36,560 nucleotides of DNA, taken from positions 1-36,560 of the IMG/VR virus record IMGVR_UViG_2724679539_000003. One strand, given 5' to 3'. The notes beneath the pieces were generated by a model. It saw only the letters and a list, made by a program, of their open reading frames with translations. It did no database searches and was not told where the DNA came from. This document shows, one piece after another, positions 9,796 to 18,833 of the stretch. This DNA comes from a virus. Taxonomy: Duplodnaviria; Heunggongvirae; Uroviricota; Caudoviricetes. Numbering within the stretch: position 1 is the first letter of the stretch; each line of letters opens with the position of its first letter. The position numbers and the translations under genes are program-made.

Positions 9796-10369
9796 CATCC
9801 GGCGCGGTGCTGGTATCTGTTGCCGTCACCGTGTCAATGTAATCCAGCACAGCGTTAAGCCGGGTTGTTTCTGCCTGCGTCAGTTTCCGTCCGGCCTGTA
9901 ATTTCAGCTGAATCAGACTAATGGAAGCCATTGCAGCATCAATCAGTGACTGGCGCTGTGCTTCTGCCGCGTCTACTGCGGCGCTATGCTGTGCCTCAGT
10001 ATCCGTCACCCATTTCTCACCATCCCATTTATCGTATGGCGTTAATGGGGCGATAGTGGTTGTATTATTAGGGTAATCACCCGGAGCTGTGATTTCTTTT
10101 GATTCTCCTGTTTCGGTGCTAAAGACGATTTCACCGCGATGGTCTGGCACATATTCCCATGACTTAAAATCTGCAGAACGGCAGATTGCATAACCAGCTT
10201 TGTATGCGCCTGGAGCATCTAAACAGGAACATGCCGGAATACCGACGCCAACCGCAAGATATTCAGTTGATGTGGAAATATATTCCCGCGTTTCACCATC
10301 ATAATTATAAATGGTAATGTCTCCCGCTTTTATGGCAATGAGTTCGTTATTTAATACGGCTTTATTCAT
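9767..10369 (-). CDS. Tail fiber assembly protein (currently in the expressed orientation)
   Basis: 200 aa with Tfa-family C-terminus LDYIDTVTATDTSTAPDVIWPELP; ATGA overlap with the tail fiber stop. Confidence 0.85.
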   Translation of the reverse strand: MNKAVLNNELIAIKAGDITIYNYDGETREYISTSTEYLAVGVGIPACSCLDAPGAYKAGYAICRSADFKSWEYVPDHRGEIVFSTETGESKEITAPGDYPNNTTTIAPLTPYDKWDGEKWVTDTEAQHSAAVDAAEAQRQSLIDAAMASISLIQLKLQAGRKLTQAETTRLNAVLDYIDTVTATDTSTAPDVIWPELPEA

Positions 10370-16230: not shown

Positions 16231-18066
16231 TTACCTGCCAAAGCGCGTATAGCCAACATCATGGCTGACATCAAAACCGCTGGATCGCGTTTCCATAACC
16301 CGCATACCCGGAGGCGAATTCACAAAAGAGACCTTGATCTCACCATCAACTTTTGGCGCAGAAGCTTTGTTAATCATGAAGGGATTCGGGCCTGTGGCAT
16401 CGGAGGCGTTGTTTGACTGAGCCGGATCTACCGCCTGATAAGGTGTGTATCCCCGTGCCGGTATTCCCGTCCCATAAGCATCATAAGCACCCGCGCCCCA
16501 CTGCGCAGAGTTAATGGCATCGACCGTGTCACCGGAACTGTCGGTAAACCACTCAATAATTGGCTTCAGCTTGTCCCACATATCCTGAAACCACTTAACA
16601 ACCGGTCCCCAGTTATTGATTACCATCCCCAGCGGCGACCAGGCAAAAACCTTCTTCAGAAGTTCCCAGCCAGCCTCAAAATAAGGACCAATGGTTTCCC
16701 AGAGCTTCTTGAAATAAGGTCCGACAACATCCCAGTTAGTGATAATTAATCCCGCAGCCAGGGCTATCGCCGTCGCAATCATTCCAATCGGCGTCATCGA
16801 CATGATCCTGCTGACAATACTGATGGCACCGCCAACGCCCATCAATCCCAGTTTCAGAATCGCAAGACCGGCAGCAAGCCCGACGACGCCGCGAATAACC
16901 CGGGGATTTTCATCCGCAAACTTCGTGAATTTTTCCCCTAACTCCCCCAGCCATTGCGTGATATTTTTGGCGTCACCAGAAAATGCGCCGCCAATAGCCG
17001 CAAGGCCGTTAGTTGCGGTCCCCGTCATTGCCTCCCACAGGTTGGACAGCGTACCAAGCTGGGCCTGAACACGTTTATTCAGGCTGGCCTGTTTATTCAT
17101 CTTCTGCTGGATCTGATCGTAGCCATCCTTTCCTTTATCGATTAGTGCATTGACCACCTGAAGGGTTTCGGCATCATCACCAAATATTGCCTTAAGTACA
17201 CCTGTTCGCTTAACGTCGGTCAGTTTTCGCAGCTTTGCCAGTTGCCTGAACATGTTATCAAGACCGCCAAAACTCCCTTTGCCGTCAGTAAAATCGAGCT
17301 GCACTCCGAGTTTCTGGCGGGCCATGACTTTATTGACGTCCCTGATTTTCTTAACGCTTAATCCGGACTGGATAACTTTTCGCAGGGCATTACCTGCCGA
17401 CTCCCCGTTCATCCCCATCTGATCCATCATGACGCTGATAGGGGCAAGGCTCTGTGCAGCCTGAAGACCGTCCTTGTTCACCATCTTCAGAACAGAACTG
17501 GTTTTAGTGAAGAAGGACAACATGTTGGTATCGTCAACGCCCAGATAAAACGCCTTCTGGATAGTGTCGAACAGCCCCATCATGTCTTCTGACGCCGTTC
17601 CGGTAGCATCCTGCATCTTTGCAGCAAACTCAGCAGCCGCTTCCGGTGTTTTTTTCAGTTGTACCGCAAGATAAGCTGTCGCTTTACCCACACCACCAAG
17701 AATGTTTTCTGCCGGGATCCCCTGACGCACCAGCATCTGCATCATGTTCTGGAAATCAGCCGTTGTACCGGGTAGCTGGTTACCCAGGCCAATAGCCAGT
17801 TTATTGATGTCCTGAAAGCTCTTTCCGACCTCGCCGTTCGCATCCATCATGGCGACTTTCAGCCCGGTGGCGGCGTTTTCCTGATCGGCATAAGATTTCA
17901 GGGAAAGCGTCAGACCCGCTGCCAGTCCGCCACCAAGCGCCAGCCCACCCTGTGATGCTTCTTCCGCCTGGCGTTTAAATCCCCGGATTTTCTTTTGCAT
18001 TTTCGACAGCGCGGGAGAAAGTCTGTCGACACCGGTGATCAACGCCTTAAGCTCAAATTCAGCCAT
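16231..18066 (-). CDS. Tail tape measure protein
   Basis: 611 aa, Ala/Gly-rich with hydrophobic segments; directly downstream of the chaperone frameshift pair. Confidence 0.85.
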   Translation of the reverse strand: MAEFELKALITGVDRLSPALSKMQKKIRGFKRQAEEASQGGLALGGGLAAGLTLSLKSYADQENAATGLKVAMMDANGEVGKSFQDINKLAIGLGNQLPGTTADFQNMMQMLVRQGIPAENILGGVGKATAYLAVQLKKTPEAAAEFAAKMQDATGTASEDMMGLFDTIQKAFYLGVDDTNMLSFFTKTSSVLKMVNKDGLQAAQSLAPISVMMDQMGMNGESAGNALRKVIQSGLSVKKIRDVNKVMARQKLGVQLDFTDGKGSFGGLDNMFRQLAKLRKLTDVKRTGVLKAIFGDDAETLQVVNALIDKGKDGYDQIQQKMNKQASLNKRVQAQLGTLSNLWEAMTGTATNGLAAIGGAFSGDAKNITQWLGELGEKFTKFADENPRVIRGVVGLAAGLAILKLGLMGVGGAISIVSRIMSMTPIGMIATAIALAAGLIITNWDVVGPYFKKLWETIGPYFEAGWELLKKVFAWSPLGMVINNWGPVVKWFQDMWDKLKPIIEWFTDSSGDTVDAINSAQWGAGAYDAYGTGIPARGYTPYQAVDPAQSNNASDATGPNPFMINKASAPKVDGEIKVSFVNSPPGMRVMETRSSGFDVSHDVGYTRFGR

Positions 18067-18477
18067 GTGTGCGTTTCTCCTGCTCTATCCTGTTTGCCTG
18101 ACTGACCAGCAAGGGAATTTCACTGATCGGCATATTCAGCAATTCGAAGGGATTAATGCGCCAGTAGCTGGCGCAGTCAAAGAAGCGATCAGTGAGGTAT
18201 TCAGCCGTCAGGCCTGGAGGAAAAAACCAGCCACAAGCCACGCCGCAGCATTCAGGTCTGCCGGAGACATCTGGTCGACAGAGTTTTGCGGCACTTTCGC
18301 CAGCCGCACAATGTATTTCGATACCACATGCGCCAGAAGTCTGACGGACTCATCCTGATTCATCTGGTAGGGATACCCCAGCTCGCGGACATCTTTCCCG
18401 GTGGGCTCATCAAACTCCAGTACGGAGAGTGTCTCGCCATGAGCGGTAATCGGTTTCTTTAACTCAAGCTCTTTCAT
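18059..18477 (-). CDS. Tail assembly chaperone with programmed -1 frameshift extension (G/GT-like)
   Basis: Zero-frame 89-aa ORF 18208-18477 ends ...AGFFLQA. The slippery heptamer T_TTT_TTC (minus strand 18226-18220) opens the -1 frame, which continues FFPPGL... to a stop at 18059, overlapping the tape-measure start. Confidence 0.7.
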
Positions 18478-18833
18478 TACTGGTAATCCCCTTCTTCACC
18501 GTGGAACTCAAGATCAACCGTCCCTTCTTCGGCATTATGGTTCGCTTCGCCGTGCAGCCAGGCAGACGACAGTACATAGACCTGACCGTTCGCCAGCTCG
18601 GCAGTGATGGTCATCTCATCAGACGAGGTGATTTTGCTCACCGGAAAATTCTTCGGCACCTTGAAGGTCCCTTTAACATAAGGCGCACGGTGAGTTTCCT
18701 TGCGGTCCACTGAACCGTCCAGGCCGATGATGTCATCATTGACCGTCCTGTTCATGGGCACCTCAATGCCGCCGGTCAGCGATAGCTGCTGACCGTCAAT
18801 TTTGAAATAACAGGTTCCCCCGATACGGGCCAT
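18477..18833 (-). CDS. Tail tube protein (Mu gpM-like)
   Basis: 118-aa ORF between sheath and chaperone; TAATG overlap with the chaperone start. Confidence 0.8.
   Translation of the reverse strand: MARIGGTCYFKIDGQQLSLTGGIEVPMNRTVNDDIIGLDGSVDRKETHRAPYVKGTFKVPKNFPVSKITSSDEMTITAELANGQVYVLSSAWLHGEANHNAEEGTVDLEFHGEEGDYQ

What the first reader, a model, noticed from the sequence alone, without database searches (positions are those of the whole stretch)
18059..18477. Programmed -1 ribosomal frameshift in the tail assembly chaperone gene
The 89-codon chaperone ORF contains the slippery heptamer T_TTT_TTC (minus strand 18226-18220) four codons before its stop. The -1 frame is open from there for about 53 codons and ends overlapping the tape-measure start codon. 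This is the conserved G/GT-type arrangement of tailed phages and supports the tail-module annotation.
Basis: seen in the sequence. Interest (0 to 1): 0.45.

Follow-up and report, generated by a model that had tools for sequence, protein, structure and literature searches.

The report
Tail chaperone programmed −1 frameshift site
The small tail-assembly chaperone gene of this SfV-like E. coli prophage carries a conserved ribosome-slippage site that should make a second, longer protein, as shown experimentally in phage P2; this is an ordinary phage feature that public annotations of this phage group omit.

Summary
On the minus strand, an 89-codon ORF (18477-18208, Pfam PF10109) lies between the tail-tube and tape-measure genes. 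It contains T_TTT_TTC (18226-18220) in the slippery phase. The −1 frame then runs 53 codons and stops at 18061-18059, overlapping the tape-measure ATG by 8 nt.

It is not chance. An in-phase T_TTT_TTN sits at the same alignment column in 10/10 diverged phages, in P2 (annotated E/E+E′ frameshift, GGT TTT TTG), in 80/80 species-level bacterial loci and in 66/68 unique viral contigs. The preceding codon always ends in T. The extension evolves like a protein read in the −1 frame. Most relatives have no start codon from which it could be made independently.

Best reading: a P2 E/E+E′-type programmed −1 ribosomal frameshift giving 89-aa and 139-aa chaperones. This is a known kind of element, unannotated in this phage group, where the extension is left blank or called a 60-aa hypothetical protein.

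The only unusual point is an invariant hairpin 45 nt downstream. It caps a predicted structured domain and has no known role.

The parts
18208..18477 (-). Short (0-frame) tail assembly chaperone ORF, 89 aa, gpE-like; stop codon TGA at 18210-18208
   Evidence: ORF and translation. Pfam PF10109 Phage_TAC_7, E=3.6e-16, residues 4-86. RefSeq annotates it as 'phage tail assembly protein'.
18220..18226 (-). Slippery heptamer T_TTT_TTC (0-frame GGT TTT TTC). Tandem tRNA-Phe slippage would move the P and A sites from UUU UUC to UUU UUU.
   Evidence: sequence and phase. (script). Conserved in phase in 80/80 species-level loci, 10/10 phages plus P2 and 66/68 unique IMG/VR sequences. GGT, TTT, TTC and the next codon CCT are each a single invariant codon in 11 unique clade sequences, while other conserved residues use 2-4 codons.
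18059..18220 (-). -1 frame extension (E'-like): 53 codons plus stop. C18220 is read twice, so the fusion CDS is join(18477..18220, 18220..18059) on the minus strand and encodes 139 aa.
   Evidence: tblastn of the fusion finds the extension in a second frame in phages with about 40% identity. There is a third-codon-position excess of substitutions in the -1 frame: 13643 against 5477 and 4348. It matches phrog_32181, E=4e-40. hhalign is collinear with P2 E+E' across the slip site, E=4e-4.
18059..18066 (-). Overlap ATGGCTGA: the tape-measure start codon (18066-18064) and the extension stop codon (18061-18059)
   Evidence: The same 8-nt overlap occurs in P2 between E+E' and T. In 80 relatives the extension ends within a few nt of the tape-measure start.
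18077..18081 (-). AGGAG ribosome-binding site of the tape-measure gene, embedded in the last codons of the extension (10-nt spacer to the ATG)
   Evidence: Sequence. The GGAG core is invariant across the SfV-clade sequences in alignment A3 and changed only in the divergent MAG row. Synonymous variation is reduced there. Its function is inferred.
16231..18066 (-). Tail tape measure protein gene (611 aa), the presumed client of the chaperone
   Evidence: PF10145 PhageMin_Tail, E=1e-26. annotation.
18477..18833 (-). Tail tube protein gene (118 aa), immediately upstream; presumed partner of the extension domain
   Evidence: PF10618 Tail_tube, E=2.4e-33.
18157..18175 (-). Conserved hairpin U-GCGCCAG-CUA-CUGGCGC-A inside the extension, 45 nt 3' of the heptamer. 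Role unknown; it is too far away to act as a canonical stimulator on its own.
   Evidence: MFE.: -13.7 kcal/mol, reached by no more than 1% of synonymous recodings; four synonymous sites in the stem are invariant while flanking codons vary; in 66 unique sequences only the first loop base varies (C/T/A), while the 5 flanking codons show 17 synonymous combinations. An analogous hairpin is present in P2; none is seen in the ST64B/SfIV or Pseudomonas clades.
18102..18211 (-). Predicted ~110-nt structured RNA domain. Its outer helix begins 8 nt 3' of the heptamer and its tip is the conserved hairpin. It is a candidate stimulator only.
   Evidence: -37.6 kcal/mol, z=-3.5, 0/200 shuffles as stable; 82.6% of cells paired against 77% in shuffles and 22-43% in slid controls; 12 pairs with changes on both sides against 5.7 expected. 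The structure was derived from this sequence and the sequences are related. Topology differs in EPP-1 and AH07.

Best explanation
This is a programmed -1 ribosomal frameshift site of the phage P2 gpE/gpE+E' type.

Most ribosomes translating the chaperone gene should read GGU UUU UUC in frame and terminate three codons later, giving the 89-aa chaperone. A minority should slip back one base on U_UUU_UUC: both tRNA-Phe molecules re-pair on UUU UUU. These ribosomes continue in the -1 frame for 53 codons and give a 139-aa protein with the same N-terminal domain plus a C-terminal extension. They terminate on top of the tape-measure start codon.

By analogy with lambda G/GT and P2 E/E+E', the shared N-domain would coat the tape measure protein. 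The extension would recruit the tail tube protein. The fixed ratio of the two products would be what the frameshift sets.

Shown here: the sequence anatomy, family membership of the N-domain, conservation of the site in phase, protein-coding selection on the -1 extension, and the absence of an independent start in most relatives.

Inferred: that slippage actually occurs in this phage, its efficiency, and the binding roles of the two domains.
For: - Anatomy confirmed.
- PF10109 N-domain and tail-module synteny: sheath, tube, chaperone, tape measure, DNA-circulation protein, hub.
- P2's record annotates the -1 frameshift at GGT TTT TTG. Its product sizes are similar (91/142 aa against 89/139) and it has the same 8-nt overlap with the tape-measure gene (PMC3091744 citing Christie 2002 and Xu 2004).
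- The slip site falls in the same alignment column, G-F-F/L.
- 10/10 diverged phages (33-76% identity) have an in-phase T_TTT_TTN, a 50-63-codon -1 extension and an end at the tape-measure start.
- 80/80 loci from different bacterial species (26 clusters at 90% identity) keep the in-phase TTTTTTN. The preceding codon is always NNT (GGT 49, AGT 29, CGT 2). Background usage is GGT 22% of Gly codons, AGT 29% of AGY and TTT 35% of Phe.
- The T-run never appears in the codon-aligned form GGC TTT TTT. That form would serve polymerase slippage equally well but not tandem tRNA slippage.
- 66/68 unique sequences from an independently anchored viral-contig sample keep GGTTTTTTC.
- Substitutions in the extension concentrate at -1-frame third positions.
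- 50/80 loci have no ATG/GTG/TTG in the -1 frame upstream of the site.
- U_UUU_UUC is a measured -1 shift-prone motif in E. coli: 0.12% alone and up to 7.6% with a strong stimulator (PMC4066793 supplement).
- Stable in-frame fusions are essentially absent among 5.8 billion protein clusters. The few found are singletons on short, noisy contigs. This fits selection for two products.
Against: - No protein-level evidence exists for this phage or its close relatives. I could not confirm whether SfV was among the genomes listed by Xu et al. 2004.
- The extension does not match Pfam PF06528 (P2 GpE C-terminal region) at E<=1. A profile of 55 extensions scores P2 E' only at E=0.25. Homology of the extension to E' therefore rests on collinearity (probability 34%).
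- The bare heptamer is weak in reporter assays (0.12%). No stimulator with canonical spacing is conserved across all clades, so the efficiency here cannot be predicted.
Confidence: 0.9

Rival explanations
1. The long form is made by transcriptional slippage. RNA polymerase would add one extra U on the T6 run, and ordinary translation of that mRNA gives exactly the same ...AGFFPPGL... protein.
For: - A +1 U transcript would encode an identical fusion, so mass spectrometry cannot separate the two routes (sequence logic).
- One public contig (SRR30949442, L176) carries T7 at this site.
Against: - Documented efficient slippage by bacterial RNA polymerase involves runs of about 9 A or T (PMC5009743). 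The run here is 6, and 6-7 in all relatives.
- The run is always placed in the X_XXY_YYZ phase (NNT TTT TTC). It is never the equally long codon-aligned GGC TTT TTT, which polymerase slippage would tolerate.
- The T7 contig has a second indel that breaks the tape-measure ORF 380 nt downstream, so it looks like sequencing noise.
Confidence: 0.05
2. The -1 ORF is a separate small gene: the 60-aa GTG-initiated ORF at 18241-18059, as annotated in some records. It would be translated independently, not as a fusion.
For: - ON470584 and many NCBI entries call it a 60-aa hypothetical protein.
- PHROGs has a family built from such calls, phrog_32181.
Against: - 50 of 80 relatives have no ATG/GTG/TTG in the -1 frame upstream of the slip site. 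46 of 80 also have none in the first 15 extension codons.
- In EPP-1 and AH07 the -1 frame opens only 43-49 nt before the chaperone stop.
- No AGGAG-like motif is visible by eye in the bases upstream of the GTG in the sequence; this was not formally scanned.
- This reading does not explain the invariance of the heptamer and its phase.
Confidence: 0.03
3. The heptamer and open -1 frame are coincidental, and the 141-nt stretch before the tape-measure gene is simply non-coding.
For: Public annotations (PGAP, and the SfV, SfI, SfII and EPP-1 records) leave this stretch empty.
Against: - The site is conserved in phase across 80/80 species-level loci and in P2.
- The third-position substitution pattern is that of a protein.
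- The extension is detectable by tblastn at about 40% identity.
Confidence: 0.01

Closest known systems
Phage P2 gpE / gpE+E' programmed -1 frameshift (FETUD tail operon; Christie et al. 2002, as cited in PMC3091744 and annotated in NC_001895)
   Same: - Same Pfam N-domain (PF10109).
- Same gene position, between the tail tube and tape-measure genes of a contractile tail.
- Slip site at the same alignment column with the same GGT TTT TTN context.
- Similar product sizes: 91/142 aa against 89/139 aa.
- The extension stop overlaps the tape-measure ATG by 8 nt in both.
- A strong hairpin lies inside the extension, some 45-66 nt downstream, in both.
   Different: - The last base of the heptamer is C (Phe-Phe) here and G (Phe-Leu) in P2.
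- The 0-frame stop is 3 codons after the site here and 6 in P2.
- Full-length identity is only about 21%.
- The extension does not hit Pfam PF06528, the P2 GpE C-terminal family.
- The surrounding tail module is Mu/SfV-like, not P2-like.
- There is no experimental demonstration for this phage.
Phage lambda gpG / gpGT frameshift (Levin et al. 1993; Xu et al. 2004, 2013, 2014; reviewed in PMC5009743)
   Same: - Same logic: a -1 frameshift near the end of a small chaperone gene located between the major tail and tape-measure genes.
- Two products share an N-terminus and neither is in the virion.
- The ratio of the two products is thought to matter for tail assembly.
   Different: - The heptamer differs: G_GGA_AAG in lambda, T_TTT_TTC here.
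- No detectable sequence homology; only PF10109 is hit.
- Lambda has a non-contractile tail.
- The lambda ratio is about 30:1, whereas P2-like phages are reported to shift 2-3-fold more.
Phage Mu gp41 region
   Same: The neighbouring genes of the window (sheath, tube, tape measure, DNA-circulation protein, gp44 hub) are Mu-like, and the chaperone sits in the same slot.
   Different: - Mu gp41 is 144 aa and has no in-phase -1 heptamer.
- In Mu the +1/-2 frame is the open one: 55 codons, ending 15 nt before gene 42.
- This fits the literature statement that the Mu shift is -2 (PMC2628397 citing Xu 2004).
- The window therefore combines a Mu-like tail module with a P2-type recoding site.

Membership tests
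P2 gpE/gpE+E'-type tail assembly chaperone with programmed -1 frameshift | N-terminal domain belongs to Pfam PF10109 (Phage_TAC_7: 'E, or 41 or 14') | tested here: met
   E=3.6e-16, 59.4 bits (cut-off 25), residues 4-86. P2 E+E' hits the same family.
P2 gpE/gpE+E'-type tail assembly chaperone with programmed -1 frameshift | Gene lies between the tail tube gene and the tape measure gene of a contractile-tail module | tested here: met
   tube 18477-18833, chaperone 18208-18477, tape measure 16231-18066, all on the minus strand.
P2 gpE/gpE+E'-type tail assembly chaperone with programmed -1 frameshift | [quoted passage not shown] | tested here: met
   GGT TTT TTC here and GGT TTT TTG in P2, in the same alignment column. 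Conserved in 80/80 and 66/68 samples.
P2 gpE/gpE+E'-type tail assembly chaperone with programmed -1 frameshift | -1 ORF of about 50-60 codons with no start of its own, ending at or overlapping the tape-measure start | tested here: met
   53 codons and an 8-nt overlap, as in P2. 50/80 relatives have no start codon in the -1 frame upstream of the site. The window itself has a GTG at 18241, but that start is not conserved.
P2 gpE/gpE+E'-type tail assembly chaperone with programmed -1 frameshift | Extension homologous to P2 E' (Pfam PF06528 Phage_P2_GpE) | tested here: inconclusive
   No PF06528 hit at E<=1. A profile of 55 extensions scores P2 E' as the best non-self target, but only at E=0.25. 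hhalign of the full-length profile is collinear through the extension: E=4e-4, probability 34%.
P2 gpE/gpE+E'-type tail assembly chaperone with programmed -1 frameshift | Extension is under protein-coding selection in the -1 frame | tested here: met
   pairwise differences by -1-frame codon position are 5477, 4348 and 13643 outside the dual-coded part; two-piece tblastn hits at about 40% identity.
P2 gpE/gpE+E'-type tail assembly chaperone with programmed -1 frameshift | Both the short and the long protein are made in vivo, and both are required for tail assembly | not testable with these tools
   This needs protein expression and genetics. It is established for P2 and lambda only, according to the literature cited in PMC3091744 and PMC5009743.
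Lambda gpG/gpGT family | Sequence homology to lambda gpG and gpT | tested here: not met
   PF10109 is the only Pfam family hit. PHROGs hits are phrog_166, phrog_103 and phrog_32181. The resemblance is functional and positional only.
Lambda gpG/gpGT family | Slippery sequence G_GGA_AAG | tested here: not met
   the heptamer is T_TTT_TTC.
Programmed transcriptional slippage sites | Long homopolymer run (about 9 or more A/T in bacteria), with no requirement for reading-frame phase | tested here: not met
   The run is 6 T here and 6-7 in all relatives, always in the X_XXY_YYZ phase. The run-length criterion is from PMC5009743.

The most novel reading that the evidence does not exclude
In the SfV-like clade, and independently in P2, the rarely translated -1 extension carries an RNA hairpin under strict nucleotide-level selection. 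In 66 unique sequences the stem is invariant and only one loop base varies. The hairpin caps a predicted ~110-nt domain whose outer helix begins 8 nt after the heptamer.

This could be one of two things:
- An unrecognised long-range frameshift stimulator. That would explain how intrinsically weak U_UUU_UUC/G heptamers (about 0.12% alone) reach the several-percent shifting reported for P2-like phages.
- A device that protects the ribosome-poor 140 nt before the tape-measure gene from Rho-dependent polarity or RNase attack.
Probability: 0.2. Interest if true: 0.45.

Novelty: new member of a known kind. Interest (0 to 1): 0.2.

Why it matters
Biologically this is the expected tail-chaperone frameshift, so it mainly confirms the tail-module annotation.

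Its practical value is for annotation. The same region is found in about 1100 of 5426 complete E. coli genomes. In the records inspected, RefSeq/PGAP and the SfV and EPP-1 GenBank entries leave the 141-nt extension blank. Other entries call it a 60-aa 'hypothetical protein'. PHROGs holds that ORF as a family of unknown function. Joining the two pieces gives that orphan family a function.

The conserved downstream hairpin is a small open question. It bears on what sets frameshift efficiency at P2-type sites, where no stimulator has been identified.

Tried and rejected
- The search for related loci with the 11-sequence alignment that included P2 failed because no conserved stretch was found. A 5-sequence alignment worked.
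- The IMG/VR scan by protein returned only 99-100% identical copies, which are uninformative. It was replaced by a DNA-pattern scan anchored at GYPYQMNQDE.
- The SfV genome paper and Christie et al. 2002 are not held. The PRFect supplement does not list the Xu et al. genomes. I therefore could not establish whether SfV was already listed as a frameshift case.
- The pheL paper concerns a +1 shift at CCC_UGA and is not relevant.
- Rfam: no family hit in the window at gathering score, and only a chance CRISPR-repeat match (E=0.57) near the site.
- NCBIfam has no model for the fusion or the extension.
- PDB by sequence gave no meaningful hit.
- Pfam PF06528 is not hit by the extension.
- Search for a universal stimulatory structure: the Pseudomonas/Burkholderia consensus fold is negligible (-2.8 and -0.9 kcal/mol). 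ST64B, SfIV, phiP27 and the Bordetella phage fold no better than shuffles. No clade-wide stimulator is claimed.
- No convincing Shine-Dalgarno-like stimulator is visible by eye in the bases upstream of the heptamer (sequence); this was not formally scanned.
- Database proteins that look like natural in-frame fusions (P0002, P0031-P0033) were checked. Each is a singleton on a short or low-coverage contig with other indels, so they are rejected as evidence either way.
- Structure prediction was not run. The extension would have had almost no admissible alignment depth, and a model would not test the frameshift.
Full report
**What is in the sequence**

On the minus strand the window carries a Mu/SfV-type contractile-tail module:
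- tail sheath, 20329-18833 (PF04984, PF17482)
- tail tube, 18833-18477 (PF10618)
- an 89-codon ORF, 18477-18208 (PF10109 Phage_TAC_7, E=3.6e-16)
- tape measure, 18066-16231 (PF10145)
- DNA-circulation protein, 16212-14842 (PF07157)
- gp44-type baseplate hub, 14845-13766

The 89-codon ORF ends ...GCT GGT TTT TTC CTC CAG GCC TGA. TTTTTTC is at 18226-18220 and its first T is the wobble base of GGT, so the phase is X_XXY_YYZ. After a −1 slip the reading frame is CCT CCA GGC CTG... for 53 sense codons, with a stop at 18061-18059. That stop overlaps the tape-measure ATG (18066-18064) in ATGGCTGA. The fusion would be 139 aa with the junction AGFF|PPGL.

**Origin and current annotation**

The region is 100% identical to prophages in several E. 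coli chromosomes. It is 98-99% identical to Shigella phages SfV, SfI and SfII and to Escherichia phages 689R6 and SKA5. It occurs in about 1100 of 5426 complete E. coli genomes.

None of the inspected records annotates a frameshift. PGAP and the SfV and EPP-1 records leave a 141-nt gap between the 'phage tail assembly protein' and the tape-measure gene. ON470584 calls the −1 ORF a separate hypothetical protein. That 60-aa call exists on about 1000 contigs and forms phrog_32181, 'unknown function'.

**Is it more than chance?**

Within the window, in-phase heptamers occur at about 0.3% of codon positions. Only 5.4% of positions have a −1 frame open for at least 53 codons (approximate gene set). 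The decisive evidence is comparative.

1. tblastn with the 139-aa fusion finds both halves, in two frames, in phages with only about 40% identity: ST64B, SfIV, phiP27, F1055 and Burkholderia BgVeeders33.
2. In 10 of 10 diverged phages an in-phase T_TTT_TT(C/T/G) lies at the homologous G/R/N/S/P/D-F-F/L position. It is followed by a 50-63-codon −1 ORF that ends at or overlaps the tape-measure start.
3. Phage P2 has GGT TTT TTG at the same alignment column, and its record annotates the E+E' −1 frameshift. It has a 57-codon extension and the same 8-nt overlap with gene T. A profile alignment is collinear from the N-domain through the slip site into the extension (E=4e-4, probability 34%).
4. In 80 loci from 80 bacterial species (Enterobacterales, Burkholderia, Pseudomonas; 26 clusters at 90% identity), 80/80 keep the in-phase TTTTTTN. 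The preceding codon is always NNT (GGT 49, AGT 29, CGT 2). In the same loci GGT is 22% of Gly codons, AGT 29% of AGY and TTT 35% of Phe codons.
5. In an independently anchored sample of viral contigs, 66 of 68 unique sequences keep GGTTTTTTC. The two exceptions are single contigs: a shifted run (GGG TTT TTT C) and a 1-nt deletion.
6. In 11 unique SfV-clade sequences, conserved residues normally use 2-4 synonymous codons. GGT, TTT, TTC and the following CCT are each a single codon.

**The extension is a translated protein without its own start**

Outside the short dual-coded stretch, pairwise differences among 50 unique 54-codon extensions fall 5477, 4348 and 13643 at −1-frame codon positions 1, 2 and 3. 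In 50 of 80 loci there is no ATG/GTG/TTG in the −1 frame between the preceding stop and the slip site. In 46 of 80 there is also none in the first 15 extension codons. Independent initiation, as some annotations imply, is therefore not the conserved mode of expression.

**Ribosomal or transcriptional?**

An extra U in the mRNA would encode the same protein, so the junction peptide cannot discriminate between the two routes. Three points favour ribosomal slippage:
- The run is only 6 T (7 in the ST64B group). Efficient bacterial polymerase slippage is described for runs of about 9 (PMC5009743).
- The run is always positioned as NNT TTT TTC. It is never the codon-aligned GGC TTT TTT, which would be equally good for a polymerase but not for tandem tRNA re-pairing.
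- U_UUU_UUC is a measured −1 motif in E. coli (PMC4066793 supplement): 0.12% without a stimulator, 0.89% with the IS911 elements and 7.6% with the IS3 pseudoknot. P2's U_UUU_UUG gives 0.118%, 0.25% and 0.77%.

One public contig with T7 (SRR30949442) also has a second indel that disrupts the tape-measure ORF, so it is best read as sequencing error. Other apparent in-frame fusions in the protein database are singletons on short or 2.4x-coverage contigs, each with different indels.

**Mechanism and function**

The best-supported model is P2 E/E+E'-type −1 programmed ribosomal frameshifting that yields an 89-aa and a 139-aa chaperone. In lambda the short form and the shared domain bind the tape measure protein. 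The extension binds the major tail protein, and the ratio (about 30:1) matters for assembly. P2-like phages are reported to shift 2-3-fold more (PMC5009743). These roles are inferred here by homology and position and were not tested.

The AGGAG at 18081-18077 inside the last extension codons is the likely ribosome-binding site of the tape-measure gene.

**Stimulators**

No conserved Shine-Dalgarno-like element or hairpin with canonical spacing is shared by all clades. The Pseudomonas/Burkholderia consensus fold is negligible, and the ST64B group and the Bordetella phage fold like shuffled sequence.

In the SfV clade, however, the 127 nt after the heptamer fold unusually well: z=−3.5 for the window, −3.9 for EPP-1 and −2.0 for AH07. 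In the window the outer helix starts 8 nt after the heptamer. The window-derived structure is kept better than shuffled or slid controls, with 12 pairs changed on both sides against 5.7 expected. Three caveats apply: the structure was derived from one of the aligned sequences, the sequences are related, and the predicted topologies differ between members.

The tip of the domain is the hairpin GCGCCAG-CUA-CUGGCGC (18174-18158), 45 nt from the heptamer, and it is clearly constrained:
- It is more stable than at least 99% of synonymous recodings.
- Four synonymous stem positions are invariant.
- In 66 unique sequences only the first loop base varies, while the five flanking codons show 17 synonymous combinations.

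P2 has an even larger hairpin at the homologous place. Its role is unknown. It could be a long-range stimulator, protection of a ribosome-poor stretch, or a DNA-level site.

**Comparison and novelty**

By family membership this is a P2 gpE/E+E'-type element (PF10109) embedded in a Mu-like tail module. It is analogous, not homologous, to lambda G/GT. Mu itself differs: it has no −1 heptamer and its +1/−2 frame is the open one, in line with the −2 shift attributed to Mu (PMC2628397). The extension is not recognised by Pfam PF06528, so it is a divergent E' family.

The finding is a new, unannotated member of a well-known kind. It is correct and useful for annotation but not surprising. Interest is low (0.2). 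The conserved hairpin is the only feature that might repay experiments.

Noticed in passing
window 18157-18175 (-); also L015 (P2) about 1745-1790: A perfect 7-8 bp hairpin lies inside the -1 extension, 45 nt after the slippery site. Its stem is invariant in 66 unique relatives and only one loop base varies. P2 has an analogous, larger hairpin at the homologous position. The ST64B/SfIV and Pseudomonas clades have none. Function unknown.
   Followed up: yes
window 18059-18241 (-): The -1 ORF is deposited about 1000 times in public databases as an independent 60-aa 'hypothetical protein'. It forms PHROG family phrog_32181 ('unknown function'). It is almost certainly the E'-like part of the frameshift product, not a gene of its own.
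   Followed up: yes
L176 (SRR30949442 contig), L177, L178; proteins P0031-P0036: There are rare database 'fused' chaperones of 137-139 aa. One has T7 instead of T6. One has GGC TTT TTC plus TGA>CGA plus a +1 T insertion 30 nt downstream. One has an upstream indel. All are singletons on short or low-coverage contigs. A 113-aa TGA>CGA read-through form (P0035) has 15 member sequences and may be a real polymorphism.
   Followed up: partly
L252 and L298 (IMG/VR contigs): Two natural or artefactual variants of the slip site were seen. L252 has GGG TTT TTT C, where the run is shifted by one base and the tandem heptamer is lost but a U_UUU tetramer remains. L298 has a 1-nt deletion (T4C3) that truncates the chaperone.
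   Followed up: partly
L014 (phage Mu, NC_000929 23552-24131): Mu gp41 has no in-phase -1 heptamer. Its +1/-2 frame is open for 55 codons and ends 15 nt before gene 42. This fits the reported -2 shift and shows that Mu-like tail modules use at least two different recoding solutions.
   Followed up: partly
window about 18440 (-); L006 (SfIV), L007 (phiP27), L008 (ST64B): There is a mosaic joint at the start of the chaperone gene. The SfIV sheath and tube genes are about 97% identical to the window. Identity stops about 37 nt into the chaperone, which is then only about 42% identical in protein. The chaperone and tape measure appear to travel together as an exchangeable unit.
   Followed up: no
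window 8274-10369: A resolvase-family DNA invertase gene (8274-8864, -) lies next to oppositely oriented small ORFs (8855-9795, +), a tail-fibre assembly gene (9767-10369, -) and a collar-domain fibre gene. This looks like a Mu Gin/G-segment-type invertible host-range switch.
   Followed up: no
window 940-6827: The left end of the window appears to be host chromosome: a 1090-aa inverse autotransporter/invasin-like protein and a PhzF-family protein. The prophage boundary would then lie at roughly 6.8-7.3 kb, next to an HNH-domain ORF (7339-8172).
   Followed up: no
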